This document shows, in pieces, positions 6,905-45,761 of a stretch of 64,000 nt of DNA. The stretch is from IMG/VR virus record IMGVR_UViG_3300037484_000235, positions 96,001 to 160,000 of that record, one strand, 5' to 3'. Below the pieces are notes generated by a model, which worked only from the letters and a program-made list of their open reading frames with translations, was not told where the DNA came from and did no database searches. This DNA is from a virus. Lineage: Duplodnaviria; Caudoviricetes. How positions within the stretch are numbered: the stretch's first letter is position 1; each line of letters opens with the position of its first letter. The position numbers and the translations under genes were made by a program.

Positions 6905-6980
6905 TCCAGGGTAGCTCAGTGGAAGTAGCGTCCGGCTGTTAACCGGATGGTCGCAGGTTCGATCCCTGCCCCTGGAGCCA
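6905..6980 (+). tRNA. tRNA-Asn(GTT)
   Basis: tccgg-ctGTTaa-ccgga, CCA. Confidence 0.9.
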
Positions 6981-7053
6981 AGACGAATGCTCGGTCGGGA
7001 GTACATCAATCTTCGATACCCCCTCTCGGCCACTAAAATTGTCGTCTGTCTTT

Positions 7054-7122
7054 AGGTCGGATGCCGTGGCGGCAAACGAGATTCCAACACTCGTGGACAG
7101 GGTTCGATTCCTTGCCGACCTG
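7054..7122 (+). tRNA. tRNA-Trp(CCA), atypical
   Basis: aggtcgg/ccgacct acceptor, short D arm, loop ttCCAac. Confidence 0.7.
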
Positions 7123-7286
7123 CCGCGTGGTGACCGAAAGGGACTCTTACCGGGGTCTCGGCTTTGGTTGCTCGTAGGGCGAATGCCGCTGAGAACTACA
7201 TTCTCCAAATCAGAAGGGCTTGCCGGAAGGCTGGCTCGGGTCGTCGCAAGACGGCCACTGTTTTCAGCACTCTTGTCGCTCGAAAT

Positions 7287-7360
7287 GCCTCATGATGCGC
7301 TTGGAGCGCAGCCTCTCTGTCTAAGAGGTGAAGCCGGTTCGATTCCGACATGGGGCGCCA
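7287..7360 (+). tRNA. tRNA-Asp(GTC)
   Basis: cctct-ctGTCta-agagg, CCA. Confidence 0.85.
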
Positions 7361-7849: not shown

Positions 7850-7922
7850 GTCTTTGTAGCTCAGTGGATAGAGCAGGCGTTTCCTAAACGCAAGATCGGA
7901 GGTTCGATCCCTCCCAAAGACG
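7850..7922 (+). tRNA. tRNA-Arg(CCT)
   Basis: gcgt-ttCCTaa-acgc. Confidence 0.85.
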
Positions 7923-7925
7923 CTA

Positions 7926-8057
7926 GGGCAGATGCGGTGAGGACTACATAACAGGAACTCGGGGTCGCTGGTTCAAGTCCAGCCTGCCATCCTGGATGGC
8001 AGTAGCTCAGTCTGGTAGAGCACGAGTAAAAACCAATCTTCGCTAACCTTGCTGCCC
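7926..8057 (+). ncRNA. YrlA-type Y RNA (circularly permuted tRNA mimic)
   Basis: order: T arm (gctgg-TTCAAGT-ccagc), hairpin-closed acceptor (ctgccat/atggcag), D arm (gctc-agtctggta-gagc); actcg/cgagt stem leads to outer gggcag/ctgccc stem. Confidence 0.85.
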
Positions 8058-8066
8058 GAACTTTAT

Positions 8067-8142
8067 GGTGGCTGTAGCACAACGGTAGTGCGCCCGGCTG
8101 TGAACCGGGTTACGGAGGGTTCAACTCCCCCCAGTCACCCCA
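8067..8142 (+). tRNA. tRNA-His(GTG)
   Basis: cccgg-ctGTGaa-ccggg, G-1, CCA. Confidence 0.9.
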
Positions 8143-8391: not shown

Positions 8392-8462
8392 TGTTCTGTC
8401 TAGTTGGAAGGGGGCCCTAATCGCGAGGGGCCGCGCAGGTTCAAGTCCTGCCAGAGCAGCCA
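8392..8462 (+). ncRNA. degenerate tRNA-like RNA
   Basis: tgttctg/cagagca acceptor, intact T arm and CCA; no D stem, non-canonical anticodon loop. Confidence 0.5.
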
Positions 8463-8528: not shown

Positions 8529-8603
8529 CGCGGGATGGAGAAGTGGTATCTCGTCGGGCTCATAACCCGGAGAACGCCGGTTCAAATCCGGCTCCCGCAA
8601 CCA
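8529..8603 (+). tRNA. initiator tRNA-fMet(CAT)
   Basis: C1:A72 mismatch, GGG/CCC anticodon stem, CCA. Confidence 0.9.
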
Positions 8604-8606
8604 AAT

Positions 8607-8683
8607 GGGGTCGTAGCTCAGTTGGGAGAAGCGCCTGCATCGCAAGCAGGAGGTCGTGAGTTCAAATCTCACCGATTCCACCA
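8607..8683 (+). tRNA. tRNA-Ala(CGC)
   Basis: G3:U70, cctgc-atCGCaa-gcagg, CCA. Confidence 0.9.
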
Positions 8684-8740
8684 TGTTTTAATAGTGGTTG
8701 ACTTACCATACTGAATGGTTCAACCTTCACCGTATCCACC

Positions 8741-9322
8741 ATGCTAGACACAGATCACCCTGAGGAAATTGTTTCCTCATCTTGGGATGGCCGTCCTCGA
8801 AGACTTGTTGCCAATCTTTGTGGTCATTGTCATGGCAGGTTCTTTGCCCCGAGACACACAACTGCAAAGTTCTGTTCTAAGACATGCTCCGACGAGTCAC
8901 AGAAGAACAAGACCGTTCTTGTTTGTGCCCAATGTAAAAGGTCTTTTGAGCGTGTTCCCAGTACCTTGAAGAACTCCCGGAGTGGGGTGAGATTCTGTCA
9001 GAGATCCTGTAAGGATGAGGCTCAAAGACTTGAGGGTCTCAAGGCCATACACCCTTCTCACTACGGGAGTGACATCACCCACAAGAAAGCTCTGATTAGG
9101 GATAGGGGACACAAGTGCGAGGTGTGTGGTTTCTCTCGGTGGCAAGGCAAGCCAATATCTCTGCACGTCGATCATGTCGACGGAAACCCTTATGACCACT
9201 CCCTAAGCAACCTTCGATTGATCTGTCCAAACTGTCATACCCAGACGCCAACTTATGGCGGCAGGAATAGAGGAAGGGGGAGAAAGTCGCGAAAGCTTCC
9301 GGATTGGAGTGACGTGAGGTGA
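8741..9322 (+). CDS. HNH endonuclease with Zn-ribbon N-terminus
   Basis: CEVC..LHVDHVDGN..NLRLICPNCH. Confidence 0.9.
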   Translation: MLDTDHPEEIVSSSWDGRPRRLVANLCGHCHGRFFAPRHTTAKFCSKTCSDESQKNKTVLVCAQCKRSFERVPSTLKNSRSGVRFCQRSCKDEAQRLEGLKAIHPSHYGSDITHKKALIRDRGHKCEVCGFSRWQGKPISLHVDHVDGNPYDHSLSNLRLICPNCHTQTPTYGGRNRGRGRKSRKLPDWSDVR

Positions 9323-9334
9323 TGGGGTGTTTTT

Positions 9335-9407
9335 CGGGGTGTAGCTCAAATGGGAGAGCTTTGGCGAACAGCCAAAGATCAGGGTTCGAATCCCTGCTAC
9401 CCGGCCA
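9335..9407 (+). ncRNA. tRNA-like RNA with 5-nt anticodon loop
   Basis: D arm gctc/gagc, tttggc-gaaca-gccaaa, T arm cagggTTCGAATccctg, CCA. Confidence 0.6.
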
Positions 9408-9541
9408 GTGTTGTGGAAATACTCGATGGGGATTACATTACCTGCTAAGTAATCGATCTGGGTTCGACTCCCAGGCGCTCCCGTAAGGGGGCGAGCCAGG
9501 GGCTAGAAAAACATCTCTGTCATCACTTGTTTCACAGCACT
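9407..9541 (+). ncRNA. YrlA-like RNA 2
   Basis: outer stem agtgttgtgg/tcacagcact; T arm ctggg-TTCGACT-cccag; acceptor closed by GTAA tetraloop; minimal D-like hairpin. Confidence 0.65.
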
Positions 9542-9551
9542 ACTTCTTTTC

Positions 9552-9692
9552 GTGGTGAATACCGCAGTGACTACATGGAAAACGGTTGCCGAAAGGCGTG
9601 TGGGCTTCGATACCCACCTCAGCCTCGCAAGGGCTGAGTGGCGGAATGGCAGACGCGACTGCAAATGTCACTGTGACCCCTCTTGTCACCAC
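9552..9692 (+). ncRNA. YrlA-like RNA 3 (class II tRNA-derived)
   Basis: gtggtga/tcaccac and cgcagtgac/gtcactgtg stems; variable arm gccGAAAggc, T arm, closed acceptor ctcagcc/ggctgag, Leu-type D arm. Confidence 0.8.
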
Positions 9693-9833
9693 ACTAACTT
9701 CGCATGGGCCCTACGGGGTCCATGTGCAGACGGGTCTCGTAGGTCGCGCCAGGCCCTACGAGCTGGAAGATAGGGGACGCCACCCGCGAAAGCGATCAGC
9801 GGCCCCGAGTCCTGTCCGTGTTCCTGGTATTCT

Positions 9834-9908
9834 GGGGCTGTAGCTCAGTTGGGAGAGCGTCTCCATGGCATGGAGAAGGTCAAGGGTTCGATTCCCTTCA
9901 GCTCCACC
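9834..9908 (+). tRNA. tRNA-Ala(GGC)
   Basis: G3:U70, tctcc-atGGCat-ggaga. Confidence 0.9.
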
Positions 9909-10067
9909 GTAAGGGTAGTTCAAGTTGCGGTCGCGTACCGCACGGGGACGTAGGACAACCACAAGTCTGTGCACAGGTCGGTGGGAAGATCACGCGACGT
10001 GAGAGCTGCCTTCCAATAGAAGGTGAACGCAGGCGGAAACCCTGCCCCTTACGACAATTTCAAACAT

Positions 10068-10143
10068 GGGGACGTAGCTCAGCTGGGAGAGCGCGGGCTT
10101 TGCAAGCCTGAGGTCGCAGGTTCAATCCCTGTCGTCTCCACCA
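10068..10143 (+). tRNA. tRNA-Ala(TGC)
   Basis: cgggc-ttTGCaa-gcctg, CCA. Confidence 0.9.
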
Positions 10144-13102: not shown

Positions 13103-13323
13103 ACCTCTGTAGCGCAACGGAAGCGCGTCGGAAAAACGAAGCCGATATCGTAAAAGACGCCGTACCACCTGCTACCCTGAATCCAAATGGGATAGGGGGT
13201 GTGGGGAACCCCCAAAGGTTGCAGAAGCACCGAATGGCTTGGAGACAGGTCACTAGGGAAGCGCGGTTTCCTAAGAAGGGGGTTTGGGTGTGGATGAAGT
13301 GGGTTCGACTCCCACCAGGGGTG
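13103..13323 (+). ncRNA. tRNA frame with large insert replacing anticodon arm
   Basis: acctctg/caggggt acceptor, gcgc-aacggaa-gcgc D arm, gtggg-TTCGACT-cccac T arm separated by about 170 nt. Confidence 0.65.
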
Positions 13324-13330
13324 CTAAAAA

Positions 13331-15259: not shown

Positions 15260-15347
15260 GGAAACTGAACTAGACTGGGTCTGGGCCCGCTTGGAAAGCG
15301 GTGAGATATCGCAAGGTGTTGAGGTTCAATTCCTCCGGTTTCCGCCA
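15260..15347 (+). tRNA. tRNA-Ser(GGA)
   Basis: ccgc-ttGGAaa-gcgg, long variable arm, GCCA. Confidence 0.85.
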
Positions 15348-15348
15348 T

Positions 15349-15468
15349 GAGTCGTGCTTGGTGCTTGGGAAGCTAGCTCCCACCTTCGGGTTCGATTCCC
15401 GACGGGTAAGGCAAATGGGGCCCTACTTAGAACTGGTAAGGAAGAGGGTTCGATCCCCTCGCGACTCA
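15349..15468 (+). ncRNA. tRNA-like RNA with two T arms
   Basis: gagtcgt/gcgactc closes tcggg-TTCGATT-cccga and gaggg-TTCGATC-ccctc. Confidence 0.55.
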
Positions 15469-15579
15469 CCCAACTAGAAAGGTTCCAGCATCCGTATTCC
15501 AAAATATTCGAGAATACGTTGGAAAGGGCTCATGAAAACACCTTGCCCCTGGATCAGATAGGGGTTAGCATGCGGAGGT

Positions 15580-15966
15580 ATGCCGTATGCTAACCCAACC
15601 CAACAGCGAGAGTACCAGGTAAGGTGGCTGAGAAAGCGACGCGAGGAATGGTTGAAGGCTCACGGACCCTGCGTGGCTTGTCGCTCTACGGTTGATTTAG
15701 AGGTCGATCATGTAGATCCAAACCTGAAGCTCGACCATAACGTGTGGTCGTGGTCAGAGTGCCGCAGGGCAGAGGAGTTGGCGAAGTGTCAAATCCTCTG
15801 CAAACGGTGCCACATGAAGAAGACACTTGAGCAAAGACCTAGTACTCAGCACGGATGTGCTCAGATGTATCAGAAGTACAAGTGTCGGTGTGATGTCTGC
15901 CGCTCATGGAAACAGGCTTCAGACGCAAGATACAGAAGTGTTCGAAAATCGAAGTTCGGAAGATAA
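15580..15966 (+). CDS. HNH endonuclease
   Basis: CVACRSTVDLEVDHVDP..CQILCKRCH plus C-terminal CRCDVC. Confidence 0.9.
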   Translation: MPYANPTQQREYQVRWLRKRREEWLKAHGPCVACRSTVDLEVDHVDPNLKLDHNVWSWSECRRAEELAKCQILCKRCHMKKTLEQRPSTQHGCAQMYQKYKCRCDVCRSWKQASDARYRSVRKSKFGR

Positions 15967-16047
15967 ATCAGCCAGGGGCTGAACCTGCTTTGAACACAGT
16001 GTGGGCCTGTCAAAGGGTCTGGGTTTCGAGTACTCTGTCTTCCGCCA
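15958..16047 (+). tRNA. tRNA-Ser(TGA)
   Basis: ggaagat/gtcttcc acceptor, loop ttTGAac, long variable arm; weak anticodon stem. Confidence 0.75.
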
Positions 16048-16049
16048 AC

Positions 16050-16229
16050 ATGCCAGTCGAATTCAAATGTGTGGGTGGGGCCCATCTCCCGGTGGGGTGC
16101 GGGGCTGTATTCACATGGCCTGAGCCACCGCCGCACAGCGATCGGTACTGCCACAAGTGCGGCAACCTCTACGTCCAGTGGGTGAACTACGAGAAGTGGA
16201 TTGCCTGGCTGGCCAAGTCCGGTGGTTGA
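16050..16229 (+). CDS. small Zn-finger protein
   Basis: CxxxxxxxxxC..YCHKCGNLY. Confidence 0.6.
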   Translation: MPVEFKCVGGAHLPVGCGAVFTWPEPPPHSDRYCHKCGNLYVQWVNYEKWIAWLAKSGG

Positions 16230-16286
16230 TCCGCCTTTGTTGTGGTCATACCTGTGCAGAGCCACAGGACTACCGAAACGCGTGAG

Positions 16287-16571
16287 TTACAGAATAGGTA
16301 GTTCCGTTACAGGATCTTGAAACTCTATCCTGAAGTCAGAGAGTTCCGATTCCGTGAGAACGGTGAGAAGCTGTGTTAGTGCACCCTGTTGGAGGGTAGA
16401 CATCTCACGTTTGTTCGGGAATTCCCGAGCTATGAAGATTCGGCTGCTAGATTCAGAGAAGGTTCTCTCAAACCTGGCAGTAATCAAAGCTTGTGATTCT
16501 CTGGATAGAGAGTAGGTGTCCCCGTCCCGATTGGAGGATGTGTAGATAACGAGGGTCTCTTTTGTCGCCAT
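16287..16571 (-). CDS. hypothetical protein
   Basis: MATKETLV.. start chosen outside the tRNA-Ser overlap. Confidence 0.55.
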   Translation of the reverse strand: MATKETLVIYTSSNRDGDTYSLSRESQALITARFERTFSESSSRIFIAREFPNKREMSTLQQGALTQLLTVLTESELSDFRIEFQDPVTELPIL

Positions 16572-16587
16572 GGGAGACCATACCTTT

Positions 16588-16676
16588 GGAAGGTGAATCG
16601 GCCAGGGGCCGAGCTGGTTTCGAAAGCCATGCGGGCCCATCAAGGGTCTGGGGATCAAGACCTCCGCCTTCCGCCA
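16588..16676 (+). tRNA. tRNA-Ser(CGA)
   Basis: tggt-ttCGAaa-gcca, long variable arm, GCCA. Confidence 0.85.
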
Positions 16677-16873
16677 ATGTAACACCTGCGCTTTTCCCTG
16701 AGTTGAAGCTCATCGCAAAGCACCATGTAGGCTCCGTGGTAAGCGGTGTCCGGGGTGGTGTTCTCGTCTTCAGGCAAGTCATCGTCATCCATTTCGGAAC
16801 GGGGCCTGCCCCCTTCGAGGTGTGAGACTAGGGCTTCGATTGTGGCCTTGAGTTGATTCTTGGTGAGTCGCAT
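16655..16873 (-). CDS. small acidic hypothetical protein
   Basis: 72-aa ORF with protein-like composition. Confidence 0.45.
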   Translation of the reverse strand: MRLTKNQLKATIEALVSHLEGGRPRSEMDDDDLPEDENTTPDTAYHGAYMVLCDELQLREKRRCYIGGRRRS

Positions 16874-16929
16874 ACTCTCTCATGCGCGTGAGCACGGCTC
16901 TGGTTGCAGGAGGGCGTAAGTAAAAGTTC

Positions 16930-16990
16930 GGGGAGGTGCTCGCGGGAGCTAGTGCACTAAAGCCAGATTCGACTTCTGGCCTCTCCACCG
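16930..16990 (+). ncRNA. mini tRNA-Ala-like RNA lacking anticodon
   Basis: ggggagg/cctctcc with G3:U70, A73; D and T arms; anticodon arm reduced to tagtgcacta. Confidence 0.65.
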
Positions 16991-16992
16991 TT

Positions 16993-17079
16993 GGAAGCTG
17001 AATTGGTGATGGCACCAAGCTTGATTGCTAATCAATGCGTGCCTACGGGCATGGGGTTCGAATCCTCCGGTTTCCGCCA
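16993..17079 (+). tRNA. tRNA-Ser(GCT)
   Basis: ttga-ttGCTaa-tcaa, long variable arm, GCCA. Confidence 0.85.
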
Positions 17080-17691: not shown

Positions 17692-19359
17692 ATGAAAGAG
17701 GGGAATTACATCATGGCAAATCGAAAGCTTTTCGCGTCCGCTCCGGCTGGTCGGGTAGCACCGCCCACCGACACTGTGAACTCTGCTGGTGGTCGAGCCT
17801 ACAAGGCTGGTCCGAAGGAGGCGCTCGCCCAGTACGTGGCGACCGGCTGCCTTGGGGCAACCTTCTACGCTTCGGCTGAGGAGCAGCTCGATGAGATCCT
17901 CAAGCTCGCGTCCGACGTGAGCCCGGAGTTCGTCGCACAGGCGGCCGTCTACGGACGTCGGTCTGCGTTCATGAAGGACACTCCGGCGCTTCTGCTCGCG
18001 CACCTGGCGACCCGTGGTCCAGAGGGTCTTGCTGCGCTCAAGGCGGCATTCAACCAGGTCGTAGACAACCCGAAGATGCTCCGCACCTTCGTGCAGATCA
18101 TGCGCTCGGGCAAGGTCGGCCGGAAGTCACTCGGCACCGCACCCAAGACCCTGGTCAAGGCGTGGTTCGATGCACGTTCTGACGTGCAGCTCTTCCGTGC
18201 GACCGGTGACAAGCCGTCGCTTGCGGACGTGATCAAGATGGTCCACCCCAAGCCCCAGAACGCGGCTCGGAAGGCCCTCTACGCCCTCCTGGTGGGCAAG
18301 AGCTACGACCTCGATGCGTGCGATGCACTCGTCCAGGAGTTCGAGGCGTGGAAGAAGGATCCGTCGCGGCCAGTACCGGACGTTCCCTTCCTCATGCTCA
18401 CGAACGTCCAGCTCGACAAGAAGCAGTGGGTGGCTATCGCCCGGTCGGCTTCCTGGCAGACCGCACGCATGAACCTCAACACGTTCCTGCGTCACGGTGT
18501 GTTCGAGGACAAGGCAATGATCAAGGTCATTGCGGCCAAGCTGCGGGATGAGTCGGAGATTGCTCATGCACGGGTCTTCCCGTACCAGCTTCTCGTCGCG
18601 TACCGGAACGTCTCTGGCGTTCCGATGGAGATCCAGAGCGCCCTCCAGGACGCGATGGAGATCGCAACGAAGAACGTTCCTGTGATCGATGGGACCGTCG
18701 CTGTCTTCCCAGACGTGTCGGGTTCCATGTGCAGCCCGGTCACGGGTGCACGGGGTTCCGCAACCACCAAGGTCGAGTGCAAGGACGTAGCGGCGCTAGT
18801 GGCCGCTACGATTCTCCGGCGCAACCCTGGTGCGCGCGTGGTTCCCTTCAAGGAGGACGTGATCAACCTTCGGCTCAACCCGAAGGACAGCATCGTCACC
18901 ATCGCGGAGCAGATCGCGAAGTGTGGCTCGGGCGGCACCAACTGCTCGGCACCACTGCGCCTCCTGAACTCTGAGAAGGCCAAGGCGGACCTTATCGTCT
19001 ACGTCTCAGACAACGAGTCGTGGATGGATCCAAACGTCTCCCTCAACTCGTACTCCTCGGGGTACACCAGCTCGCCAACGAGCATGATGGCGGAGTGGGA
19101 GAAGTTCCGCGTCCGCAACCCGGCGGCAAAGCTCGCCTGCATCGACCTCGCGCCCAACGGTTCTCGTCAGGCACCAACTCGCAAGGACATCCTGAATGTC
19201 GGAGGCTTCTCTGACGAGGTCTTCACCCTGCTCTCCGAGTTCCACAAGGGCTCGGGAGGCGACCACTGGGCGAAGAAGATCGGGAGTGTTCAGCTCGGTC
19301 GTGAAGTCCCAGTCGCACCCGTGAAGCCCACGGGTGGAACTGATTGGGTGACCCTCTAA
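17692..19359 (+). CDS. rsr: Ro60/TROVE-VWA RNA-binding protein
   Basis: DTVNSAGGRAY..TGCLGATFYASAEEQL TROVE N-terminus; SWQTARMNLNTF; VWA MIDAS DVSGSM; GGTNCSAP; SDNESW. Confidence 0.95.
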   Translation: MKEGNYIMANRKLFASAPAGRVAPPTDTVNSAGGRAYKAGPKEALAQYVATGCLGATFYASAEEQLDEILKLASDVSPEFVAQAAVYGRRSAFMKDTPALLLAHLATRGPEGLAALKAAFNQVVDNPKMLRTFVQIMRSGKVGRKSLGTAPKTLVKAWFDARSDVQLFRATGDKPSLADVIKMVHPKPQNAARKALYALLVGKSYDLDACDALVQEFEAWKKDPSRPVPDVPFLMLTNVQLDKKQWVAIARSASWQTARMNLNTFLRHGVFEDKAMIKVIAAKLRDESEIAHARVFPYQLLVAYRNVSGVPMEIQSALQDAMEIATKNVPVIDGTVAVFPDVSGSMCSPVTGARGSATTKVECKDVAALVAATILRRNPGARVVPFKEDVINLRLNPKDSIVTIAEQIAKCGSGGTNCSAPLRLLNSEKAKADLIVYVSDNESWMDPNVSLNSYSSGYTSSPTSMMAEWEKFRVRNPAAKLACIDLAPNGSRQAPTRKDILNVGGFSDEVFTLLSEFHKGSGGDHWAKKIGSVQLGREVPVAPVKPTGGTDWVTL

Positions 19360-45332: not shown

Positions 45333-45761
45333 ATGGCACTTACCAGGGAAATTTTCGACTTCACCTACCGATCCGGATCCGCCGGAACGTACTACTACTT
45401 CACGATCTCCCAGGACTCAACGGGTGGGATTTCGCTCAAGAACGTCCAGACTCCGAATGGTCGGATCATCGACTCTCAGACCGGGCTGCCACAATCGGTT
45501 GTGTCCGATATTGACGCTGCCATCATACAGGTGGAGAACTTCGTGGCTCAAACCAGCGCAGTAAATGGAACACTCAGCTTTGTGGCTCAGACGAGCCAAA
45601 GCGTGACTTTCGCTACCCCCTTTGCAGGGACGACCTACCGGGTGCAGTTGGCACTGGCCGACTATATCCCGGCTCGGGTAATCTCTAAGCTTACGACCGG
45701 ATTCACCGTAGAATTGGGCGTGAGCTACACAGGAGACGTCGGGTACGACGTTTTTGTCTGA
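45333..45761 (+). CDS. putative virion structural protein
   Basis: beta-rich, Thr/Gly-rich. Confidence 0.6.
   Translation: MALTREIFDFTYRSGSAGTYYYFTISQDSTGGISLKNVQTPNGRIIDSQTGLPQSVVSDIDAAIIQVENFVAQTSAVNGTLSFVAQTSQSVTFATPFAGTTYRVQLALADYIPARVISKLTTGFTVELGVSYTGDVGYDVFV

What the first reader, a model, noticed from the sequence alone, without database searches (positions are those of the whole stretch)
9407..9541. Third permuted RNA with a GNRA-closed acceptor and an extra anticodon-like hairpin
An outer stem of about 12 bp encloses attac-ctGCTaa-gtaat (a perfect Ser-type anticodon arm), a canonical T arm, an acceptor closed by GTAA, and a minimal D-like hairpin. It would display both an anticodon-like loop and a tRNA elbow on a Y-type stem, which makes it a plausible anticodon-nuclease decoy (inference).
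Basis: partly seen in the sequence, partly recalled or inferred. Interest (0 to 1): 0.65.

Follow-up and report, generated by a model that had tools for sequence, protein, structure and literature searches.

The report
Phage Y RNA keeping an anticodon arm
This 135-base stretch in a giant phage's tRNA cluster is most likely a Y RNA, a small partner RNA of the phage's own Ro60 protein, whose head is a back-to-front copy of a whole tRNA including an anticodon-like hairpin; the kind of RNA is known, this layout is a new variant, and the proposed role as bait for tRNA-cutting enzymes is untested.

Summary
The described structure is real. Window 9407-9541 (+) folds into a 12-bp outer stem, a second stem, a 5-bp/7-nt anticodon-like hairpin (CUGCUAA), a canonical T arm, a 7-bp stem closed by GUAA and a mini D hairpin (z = -3.2).

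Five orthologues in other huge-phage contigs keep the fold (19 of 37 pairs compensatory). Across 39 homologues, 92% of cells pair and 36 of 37 pairs covary.

It is a divergent YrlA-class Y RNA:
- Its handle motifs are shared with four other Y-like RNAs in the window, one an Rfam YrlA match.
- A Ro60/Rsr gene lies 8 kb downstream.
- Ro60 occurs in 7 of 10 contigs retrieved through the RNA alone.

Rfam's YrlA model misses it: the D arm is reduced, and the handle joins at the D/anticodon junction.

The hairpin is the 'V' stem-loop of Chen et al. 2014. It carries an anticodon-loop signature (Y32-U33-R37) family-wide, in phages and bacteria. The triplet varies, so Ser (GCU) identity is not conserved. 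It is not a decayed tRNA-Ser.

The decoy role is possible but untested. The scan has noted phage Y RNAs in tRNA arrays in other genomes, and this same stretch in an overlapping window.

Verdict: new variant of a known kind.

The parts
9335..9407 (+). tRNA-Val(AAC) with encoded CCA. Its last base abuts or overlaps the first base of the Y RNA outer stem, so its 3' processing probably sets the 5' end of the Y RNA.
   Evidence: ARAGORN; Rfam tRNA 45.8 bits. Orthologues also sit directly behind a tRNA.
9407..9418 (+). Outer stem, 5' strand. It pairs with 9530-9541 (12 bp here, 8 bp in the family consensus). It carries the degenerate Rsr-type motif GUGGAAAUAC.
   Evidence: helix 1: 8 of 8 pairs with compensatory change. 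Motif GNCGAAN0-1G from PMC4201824.
9419..9424 (+). 5' side of the internal loop (AUACUC). It corresponds to AUGCu of the Rfam YrlA consensus.
9425..9433 (+). Stem 2, 5' strand (GA-U-GGGGAU), followed by the conserved YUAC 'kink' motif. It pairs with 9513-9521.
   Evidence: helix 2: 96% paired, 8 of 8 compensatory. Motif shared with the Rfam YrlA hit at 7925-8061.
9437..9453 (+). Anticodon-arm-like hairpin: 5-bp stem, 7-nt loop CUGCUAA, triplet GCU at 9444-9446. Equivalent to the 'V' stem-loop of YrlA.
   Evidence: (the tRNA model aligns it as an anticodon arm).
9454..9457 (+). 4-nt linker CGAU, the length of a class I tRNA variable loop.
   Evidence: linker 4-5 nt in most phage members.
9458..9474 (+). 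T arm: CUGGG / UUCGACU / CCCAG.
9476..9493 (+). Acceptor-stem equivalent: 7 bp closed by the GNRA tetraloop GUAA (9483-9486).
   Evidence: helix 5: 96% paired, 7 of 7 compensatory. GNRA in 4 of 6 orthologues.
9494..9504 (+). Minimal D-like hairpin AGCC-AGG-GGCU, which keeps a GG in the loop. Its core is identical to the D hairpin core of the phage's own tRNA-Ser(UGA).
9505..9512 (+). A-rich single-stranded joiner (AGAAAAAC) between the D-like hairpin and stem 2.
9513..9521 (+). Stem 2, 3' strand (AUCUCU-G-UC).
9522..9529 (+). 3' side of the internal loop (AUCACUUG). It corresponds to AcUuG of the YrlA consensus.
9530..9541 (+). Outer stem, 3' strand.
17692..19359 (+). Ro60/Rsr orthologue (555 aa), the presumed protein partner.
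   Evidence: Pfam vWA_Ro60 7.7e-18 and TROVE 2.1e-7. PDB 2NVO Rsr 1e-20 and phage phiLo Ro60 6.9e-19.
7918..8068 (+). Paralogous canonical YrlA-type Y RNA with the same handle motifs.
   Evidence: Rfam RF02553 59 bits, E 2e-13. R1 23 bits.
9547..9702 (+). Next Y-like RNA in tandem, 5 nt downstream, with the same handle.
   Evidence: R1 21.4 bits with filters off.

Best explanation
It is a phage-encoded Y RNA of the YrlA class, the RNA partner of the phage's Ro60/Rsr protein, in a variant layout.

Proposed mechanism:
- The paired 5' and 3' ends, the GAAU(A/G)C internal loop and the xGGGAYUAC / RUCUC stem form the handle that Ro60 binds (inferred from homology).
- The rest is a circularly permuted tRNA body. 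The acceptor stem is closed by a tetraloop. T arm, mini D hairpin and a complete anticodon-type stem-loop are all present. The handle enters at the D/anticodon junction, not through an opened anticodon stem as in published YrlA.
- The RNA is probably made as part of the long tRNA-array transcript and released by the enzymes that trim the flanking tRNAs (inferred from position).
- By analogy with Deinococcus, Salmonella and Thermus phage phiLo, the tRNA-shaped head then recruits a tRNA-binding or RNA-degrading partner, such as host PNPase, to the Ro60 ring during infection (inferred).
- The anticodon-type hairpin is the family's 'V' stem-loop. Its shape (Y32, U33, A37, A38) is under selection; the central triplet is not.
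For: Fold: real and conserved.

Shared handle: a model built from this RNA and five orthologues finds four further RNAs in the window with the same handle. One of them is the Rfam YrlA match at 7925-8061, 59 bits, E 2e-13.

Order of parts: T arm, then closed acceptor, then D. This is the YrlA consensus order.

Ro60 link:
- A Ro60 gene lies 8.2 kb downstream on the same strand.
- Orthologues were found in 5 Ro60-bearing contigs.
- Of 10 contigs retrieved through an RNA pattern alone, 7 encode Ro60, including all 3 that are at least 90% complete.
- Related RNAs lie in the tRNA array beside Ro60 of the cultured Myxococcus phage Mx1.

Literature:
- YrlA has T, AS and D arms plus a fourth 'V' stem-loop upstream of T, and occurs in phages (PMC4201824).
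- Phage phiLo Ro60 binds phage Y-like RNAs and host PNPase (PMC12135203).

Hairpin signature: Y32-U33-R37 in 11 of 26 phage and 24 of 45 bacterial members, against 5-7% in shuffled controls.
Against: - No expression, end-mapping or Ro60-binding data exist for this RNA.
- Rfam's YrlA model gives no match even at E <= 10.
- The near-invariant YrlA D arm and the UA joiner are missing.
- This copy's Rsr-type motif is degenerate: GUGGAAAU against GNCGAAN0-1G.
- The gene is 8 kb from Ro60, not adjacent to it.
- Three of the 10 RNA-retrieved contigs show no Ro60. Two are small fragments; the third is rated 86% complete.
- The large alignments were fitted to the model, and their members are not phylogenetically independent.
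Confidence: 0.8

Rival explanations
1. Anticodon-nuclease bait. This is compatible with its being a Y RNA. The displayed anticodon-type loop on a tRNA body competes for, or is sacrificially cut by, host tRNA-cleaving defence nucleases. That would protect phage and host tRNAs, or report the attack to the Ro60 particle.
For: - Anticodon-loop flanks (U33, A37, A38) are conserved while the triplet varies between paralogues and phages.
- Several Y-like RNAs with different loops occur per phage.
- The setting is a ~50-gene tRNA array, commonly read as a counter to tRNA-targeting defence (PMC7824862).
- Hughes et al. proposed YrlA as a possible competitive inhibitor of an anticodon nuclease (PMC7790460).
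Against: - Nothing tested here bears on cleavage or binding.
- The triplet is not conserved even among close orthologues, and 2 of 6 orthologue loops lack U33.
- The same signature occurs in bacterial chromosomal YrlA-like RNAs, where a phage counter-defence role does not apply.
- A Y-U-N-N-N-R loop is also the generic U-turn fold, so it may be selected for structure or for pairing.
- No RtcB or RNA ligase was found in the 252 kb available, which CheckV rates 57% complete.
Confidence: 0.12
2. Permuted precursor of a working, possibly two-piece, tRNA. RNase P would open the GUAA-closed acceptor, as reported for M. smegmatis YrlA with its 7-bp stem. The 3' end would be trimmed and given CCA, yielding an acceptor-bearing tRNA-like molecule with anticodon GCU.
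For: - It has a 7-bp acceptor-type stem and a complete anticodon arm, T arm and D-like arm.
- M. smegmatis YrlA is cut by RNase P and receives CCA (10.1101/312249).
- An earlier scan note reports a CCA-adding enzyme elsewhere in this genome (not re-tested here).
Against: - The phage already has a normal tRNA-Ser(GCU) with encoded CCA at 16993-17079.
- The RNA lacks the long variable arm that class II Ser tRNAs carry.
- The loop triplet is not conserved among orthologues.
- GNRA capping in 4 of 6 orthologues suggests a stable closed stem.
- The Ro handle would remain attached at the hinge.
Confidence: 0.03
3. Decayed tRNA-Ser or a chance tRNA-like fragment with no function of its own.
For: - It lies in a dense tRNA array with HNH endonuclease genes that could shuffle tRNA pieces.
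- Its mini D hairpin core equals that of the phage tRNA-Ser(UGA).
Against: - The fold is conserved with compensatory changes across at least 10 phage contigs with the same layout.
- The anticodon-type arm matches no tRNA of the window better than 8 of 17 positions.
- The 4-nt linker is class I, not Ser-type.
- The handle motifs are those of the Y RNA family.
Confidence: 0.02

Closest known systems
YrlA (Y RNA-like A; Rfam RF02553; Chen et al. 2014, PMC4201824; structure Wang et al. 2018, 10.1101/312249)
   Same: - Ends pair into a Ro60/Rsr-binding handle with a GAAU-type motif and a YUAC kink motif.
- Internal order is T arm, closed acceptor-like stem, D element.
- A stem-loop ('V') lies upstream of the T arm.
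- It is encoded near a Ro60 gene and occurs in phages.
   Different: - No match to the Rfam model.
- The conserved 4-bp D arm with GG loop and the UA joiner are replaced by an 11-nt hairpin.
- There is no long-range 'anticodon stem' closing the junction. A local 5-bp/7-nt hairpin sits 4 nt before the T arm, exactly where a tRNA anticodon arm lies.
- The published description says YrlA lacks the anticodon loop.
Yrl1/Yrl2 of Thermus phage phiLo with phage Ro60 (PMC12135203)
   Same: Phage-encoded Ro60 with several phage-encoded Y-like RNAs upstream. The window's Ro60 matches the phiLo protein, 9KOP, E 6.9e-19.
   Different: As described in the passages read, the phiLo RNAs are stem-bulge-stem Y RNAs with a CGAA motif. 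In those passages I saw no tRNA-like head and no tRNA-array setting.
Deinococcus radiodurans Yrn1
   Same: A Y RNA for which Chen et al. modelled a potential 'anticodon arm' with a 5-bp stem.
   Different: There the loop is 6 nt and lies between the T and D elements, with the opposite orientation. No acceptor-like stem was described.
Circularly permuted tRNA genes (Cyanidioschyzon merolae and others; cited in 10.1101/312249)
   Same: The acceptor is initially closed by a loop, and all four tRNA arms are present in permuted order.
   Different: Those are precursors processed into working tRNAs by splicing-type enzymes. Here the ends form a conserved Ro-binding handle, and the anticodon is not conserved.

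Membership tests
YrlA-class Y RNA | Encoded near a Ro60/Rsr (TROVE) gene | tested here: met
   Ro60 lies at 17692-19359 on the same strand, 8.2 kb downstream. Ro60 is present in 7 of 10 contigs retrieved by RNA pattern alone.
YrlA-class Y RNA | 5' and 3' ends pair into a long stem carrying the Rsr-type motif GNCGAAN0-1G | tested here: inconclusive
   The stem is present and covaries. Many family members match the motif exactly, e.g. GGGCGAAUG and GGACGAAUG. This copy reads GUGGAAAU, which keeps GAA but not the C.
YrlA-class Y RNA | T arm with a canonical T loop | tested here: met
   CUGGG-UUCGACU-CCCAG at 9458-9474.
YrlA-class Y RNA | [quoted passage not shown] | tested here: met
   7 bp plus GUAA at 9476-9493; 7 of 7 pairs covary.
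YrlA-class Y RNA | Highly conserved D arm (GUAGCUCA..GGUAGAGC) and UA joiner | tested here: not met
   Replaced by AGCC-AGG-GGCU with a single-base joiner. This probably explains why the Rfam model fails.
YrlA-class Y RNA | Score at or above the Rfam RF02553 gathering threshold | tested here: not met
   No match at E <= 10 in 9395-9835. The canonical paralogue at 7925-8061 also stays below the threshold, 59 against 69 bits.
YrlA-class Y RNA | Physical binding to Ro60/Rsr | not testable with these tools
   Needs a pull-down or EMSA.
Functional tRNA-Ser | Free acceptor end with CCA, long variable arm, conserved anticodon | tested here: not met
   The acceptor is closed by GUAA, the linker is 4 nt, and the triplet varies among orthologues. 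True tRNA-Ser genes lie at 15260-17079.
Anticodon-nuclease decoy (no defined family) | Binding to, or cleavage by, a tRNA anticodon nuclease | not testable with these tools
   Only the loop signature could be assessed.

The most novel reading that the evidence does not exclude
A subfamily of phage Y RNAs displays a complete tRNA body, including a true anticodon stem-loop, on a Ro60-binding handle. It would act as bait for host anticodon nucleases, as a competitive inhibitor or as a sacrificial substrate that hands the attack over to the Ro60 particle. The changing triplets among paralogues and phages would then be the trace of an arms race with tRNA-targeting defence systems.
Probability: 0.12. 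Interest if true: 0.8.

Novelty: new variant of a known kind. Interest (0 to 1): 0.5.

Why it matters
The effector that recognises the tRNA-shaped head of bacterial and phage Y RNAs is still unknown. Published work describes YrlA as lacking an anticodon loop.

Three things follow from this RNA and its relatives:
- A sizeable part of the family, in huge phages and in bacteria, keeps a hairpin with the hallmarks of an anticodon loop. In this layout it sits exactly where a tRNA's anticodon arm sits.
- It widens the list of candidate partners to anticodon-arm binders: modification enzymes and anticodon nucleases.

It also supplies a covariance model that finds Y RNAs the Rfam model misses. In addition, huge phages carry four to five Y-like RNAs interleaved with their tRNA genes, which is useful for annotating these genomes.

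Tried and rejected
- Rfam at gathering and permissive thresholds gave no YrlA match here. The only hit was a 16-bit partial tRNA match over the anticodon arm, variable loop and T arm.
- An exact-pattern scan of viral contigs for the window's own loop plus T arm found nothing.
- BLASTN against cultured phages found nothing.
- Decayed tRNA-Ser was rejected. Relaxed ARAGORN finds four true tRNA-Ser genes elsewhere in the window. Their anticodon stems differ, and this element is conserved with covariation.
- Recent copying of the anticodon-type arm from a neighbouring tRNA was rejected for this RNA. The best match is 8 of 17 in the window, no better than to tRNAs of unrelated loci. The one 17 of 17 case, in L008, may be ARAGORN calling part of the Y RNA itself; I did not check it.
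- A short closing helix (YUA with UAG) around the five-way junction was rejected. The Y of YUAC covaries with the purine before UCUC instead.
- Enrichment of Ser triplets is only suggestive: 6 of 28 loops against about 9% expected. I do not rely on it.
- RtcB, Rnl2-type and T4 Rnl1-type ligase searches of the 252-kb record were negative. The record is incomplete, and the Rnl1 search had no positive control.
- Two reviews by Sim and Wolin could not be read because they are not held.

Full report
**Setting.** The window is bases 96001-160000 of a 252.5-kb IMG/VR virus record rated 57% complete, so it comes from a huge phage. Between 6336 and 20928 the + strand carries 46 tRNA genes by default ARAGORN. 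Four more tRNA-Ser genes appear when thresholds are relaxed. Three HNH endonuclease ORFs and a 555-aa Ro60/Rsr orthologue (17692-19359) lie among them. The Ro60 matches Pfam vWA_Ro60 at 7.7e-18 and TROVE at 2.1e-7. Its best solved relatives are D. radiodurans Rsr (1e-20) and Thermus phage phiLo Ro60 (6.9e-19). The closest cultured relative by Ro60 is Myxococcus phage Mx1 at 45% identity. Mx1 has the same arrangement, with Ro60 inside a tRNA array that also holds HNH genes.

**Observation.**
- a 12-bp outer stem (9407-9418 with 9530-9541);
- a second stem (9425-9433 with 9513-9521);
- the hairpin AUUAC-CUGCUAA-GUAAU (9437-9453);
- a 4-nt linker;
- the T arm CUGGG-UUCGACU-CCCAG (9458-9474);
- a 7-bp stem closed by GUAA (9476-9493);
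- the hairpin AGCC-AGG-GGCU (9494-9504).

The fold is more stable than all 200 dinucleotide shuffles (z = -3.2). The Rfam tRNA model aligns 9434-9474 as anticodon arm, variable loop and T arm at 16 bits. In the whole 252-kb record this is the only T arm followed directly by a GNRA-closed stem. The element starts at the last base of the CCA of tRNA-Val(AAC). No ORF of at least 80 codons overlaps 9407-9541. No promoter-like or terminator-like site lies in 8600-10100.

**Conservation.** The phage Ro60 protein retrieved 15 related loci from IMG/VR. BLASTN found orthologues of the element in five of them at 72-79% identity, mostly directly behind a tRNA. RNAalifold on the six sequences gives 37 pairs, 19 with compensatory double changes.

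A covariance model (R1) then found many more members, both in those loci and in 60 loci retrieved with an RNA-only pattern. In an alignment of 39 hits, 92.2% of cells form standard pairs, against 39-51% when partners are slid, and 36 of 37 pairs show double changes. That alignment is fitted to the model, so it leans towards the structure. Ten of the 39, from ten different contigs, share the exact layout of the finding: a 7-nt-loop hairpin, a linker of at most 5 nt, a closed acceptor and a D element of at most 14 nt.

**What it is.** With filters off, R1 finds five RNAs in the window that share one handle. The handle consists of an outer stem, then GAAU(A/G)C, then a stem ending in GGGAYUAC, and on the 3' side RUCUC...CA..CUUGUC. 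The five are:
- 6972-7058 (handle only);
- 7169-7292;
- 7918-8068;
- 9405-9546 (this finding);
- 9547-9702.

The third is a match to Rfam YrlA at 59 bits, E 2e-13, below the 69-bit gathering score. The Rfam consensus has the same order of parts: handle, CUA motif, T arm, closed stem, D arm, handle. Of ten contigs retrieved through the RNA pattern alone, seven encode a Ro60 homologue, including all three that are at least 90% complete. In the cultured phage Mx1 two related RNAs lie in the tRNA array 11 kb upstream of Ro60. One of them sits under an annotated 'hypothetical protein'. I therefore read the element as a Y RNA of the YrlA class.

It fails two family features. The near-invariant D arm and UA joiner are replaced by an 11-nt hairpin. 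Probably for that reason, the Rfam model does not see it even at E <= 10. Its Rsr-type motif is also degenerate, GUGGAAAU against GNCGAAN0-1G, while many relatives match the motif exactly.

**The 'extra' hairpin.** Chen et al. [quoted passage not shown] Wang et al. 2018 state that YrlA lacks the anticodon loop. In the present family the hairpin behaves like an anticodon arm.

Of 39 phage members, 28 have at least 4 of 5 stem pairs and a 7-nt loop. In those 28 loops:
- position 32 is a pyrimidine in 24;
- position 33 is U in 21 (p 1e-7);
- position 37 is A in 24 (p 5e-12);
- position 38 is A in 23 (p 8e-11);
- the central triplet takes 16 different values.

With an independent hairpin caller, the combined Y32-U33-R37 signature occurs in 11 of 26 phage members and 24 of 45 bacterial members. 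Shuffled controls give 5-7%. The bacterial members come from 88 model hits in Sphingomonadales, Planctomycetota, Myxococcota and others.

In phage members the hairpin is mostly 4-5 nt from the T arm, the length of a class I variable loop. In bacterial members it is mostly 7 nt away. In the finding's subfamily no long-range helix closes the junction. The handle therefore enters between the D element and the anticodon-type arm, making a five-way junction. This differs from published YrlA, where the handle continues from an opened anticodon stem.

The members are not independent samples. Among the six closest orthologues only three loops show the full signature, so this is a tendency and not a rule.

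**Ser identity and origin.**
- The triplet GCU is specific to this copy. The orthologues carry UAA, GAA, GUU, GGA and CAU.
- The phage has four regular tRNA-Ser genes with encoded CCA: GGA 15260-15347, UGA 15958-16047, CGA 16588-16676 and GCU 16993-17079.
- The anticodon stem of tRNA-Ser(GCU) differs from the hairpin here, and the element has no long variable arm.
- The 11-nt D-like hairpin has the same core (AGCCAGGGGCU) as the D hairpin of tRNA-Ser(UGA).
- The anticodon-type arm matches no tRNA in the window better than 8 of 17 positions, no better than unrelated loci. It is therefore not a recent copy.

The collinearity of hairpin, short linker, T arm and acceptor strand with tRNA positions 27-72 fits the published idea that YrlA arose from a tandem tRNA transcript. 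Under that idea the V stem-loop would be the first tRNA's anticodon arm. This is inference.

**Mechanism.**
- Shown here: the fold, its conservation, the shared handle and the association with Ro60 genes.
- Inferred from the family: Ro60 binds the handle, and the tRNA-shaped head recruits another factor. In Deinococcus, Salmonella and phage phiLo that factor is PNPase.
- Inferred from position: release from the tRNA-array transcript by tRNA-end processing.
- The bait reading is compatible with this and has a published precedent as speculation (PMC7790460). Nothing here tests it. The presence of the same loop signature in bacterial chromosomal copies argues that it is not a phage-specific counter-defence trait.
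- The signature is also that of a generic U-turn loop, which could serve pairing or protein recognition.
- No RtcB or RNA ligase was found in the available part of the genome.

**Novelty and prior notes.** Phage Ro60 with Y RNAs is known from mycobacteriophages, CcrColossus, Bacillus phage G, phiLo and some jumbo phages. I found no paper among those searchable that describes this layout or the anticodon-loop signature of the V stem-loop. Two reviews could not be read.

Earlier notes of this scan describe the neighbouring Y RNAs at 7926-8057 and 9552-9692, phage Y RNAs in tRNA arrays of other genomes, and this same stretch from an overlapping window. I confirmed the first neighbour with Rfam and saw the second only as a model hit.

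Verdict: a real, conserved RNA and a new structural variant of a known kind. The Ser-specific decoy reading is not supported as stated. A general anticodon-arm-mimic function remains open.

Noticed in passing
window 15260-15347, 15958-16047, 16588-16676, 16993-17079 (+): Four tRNA-Ser genes (GGA, UGA, CGA, GCU) with encoded CCA. Default ARAGORN and the Rfam tRNA model miss them; they score only as weak tRNA-Sec-like hits. All have unusually long D hairpins (5-6 bp) with 3-nt loops (AGG, AUG, UGG).
   Followed up: partly
window 6972-7058 and 7169-7292 (+): Two further Y-like RNAs with the same Ro-type handle but no T arm. The first is handle plus a 17-nt loop and gives a weak Rfam YrlB hit. The second has two small hairpins.
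   Followed up: partly
window 9703-9833 (+): A 130-nt spacer between the tandem Y RNAs and tRNA-Ala(GGC). It folds into several GC-rich hairpins, but not significantly better than shuffles (z = -1.65). Nature unknown.
   Followed up: partly
window 8435-8462, 13299-13326, 15386-15402, 15444-15460 (+): Orphan canonical T arms outside any called tRNA. Some are followed by acceptor-like strands ending in CCA, which suggests more tRNA-like RNAs in the array.
   Followed up: no
L078:600-720 (Myxococcus phage Mx1, OR576727.2, about 45514-45634): A Y-like RNA (40 bits with R1; hairpin loop CUGGAAA) lies under an annotated 'hypothetical protein' CDS (WNM70101.1). That CDS is probably a mis-annotation. 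A second Y-like RNA lies at L078:248-390.
   Followed up: partly
L089, L117, L120, L153 (Nannocystis chromosomes): Tandem arrays of three to five YrlA-like RNAs in a row in myxobacterial chromosomes. I did not check whether an rsr gene is adjacent.
   Followed up: no
L025, L026, L048, L049, L058, L069, L075 (IMG/VR contigs): The pattern scan found a recurrent GGGAUUACA...CUUGCAA...GGGGUUCGAUUCCCC element with an Ala-type (UGC) anticodon loop. It did not score with the Y RNA model. It may be a tRNA or a different tRNA-like family.
   Followed up: no
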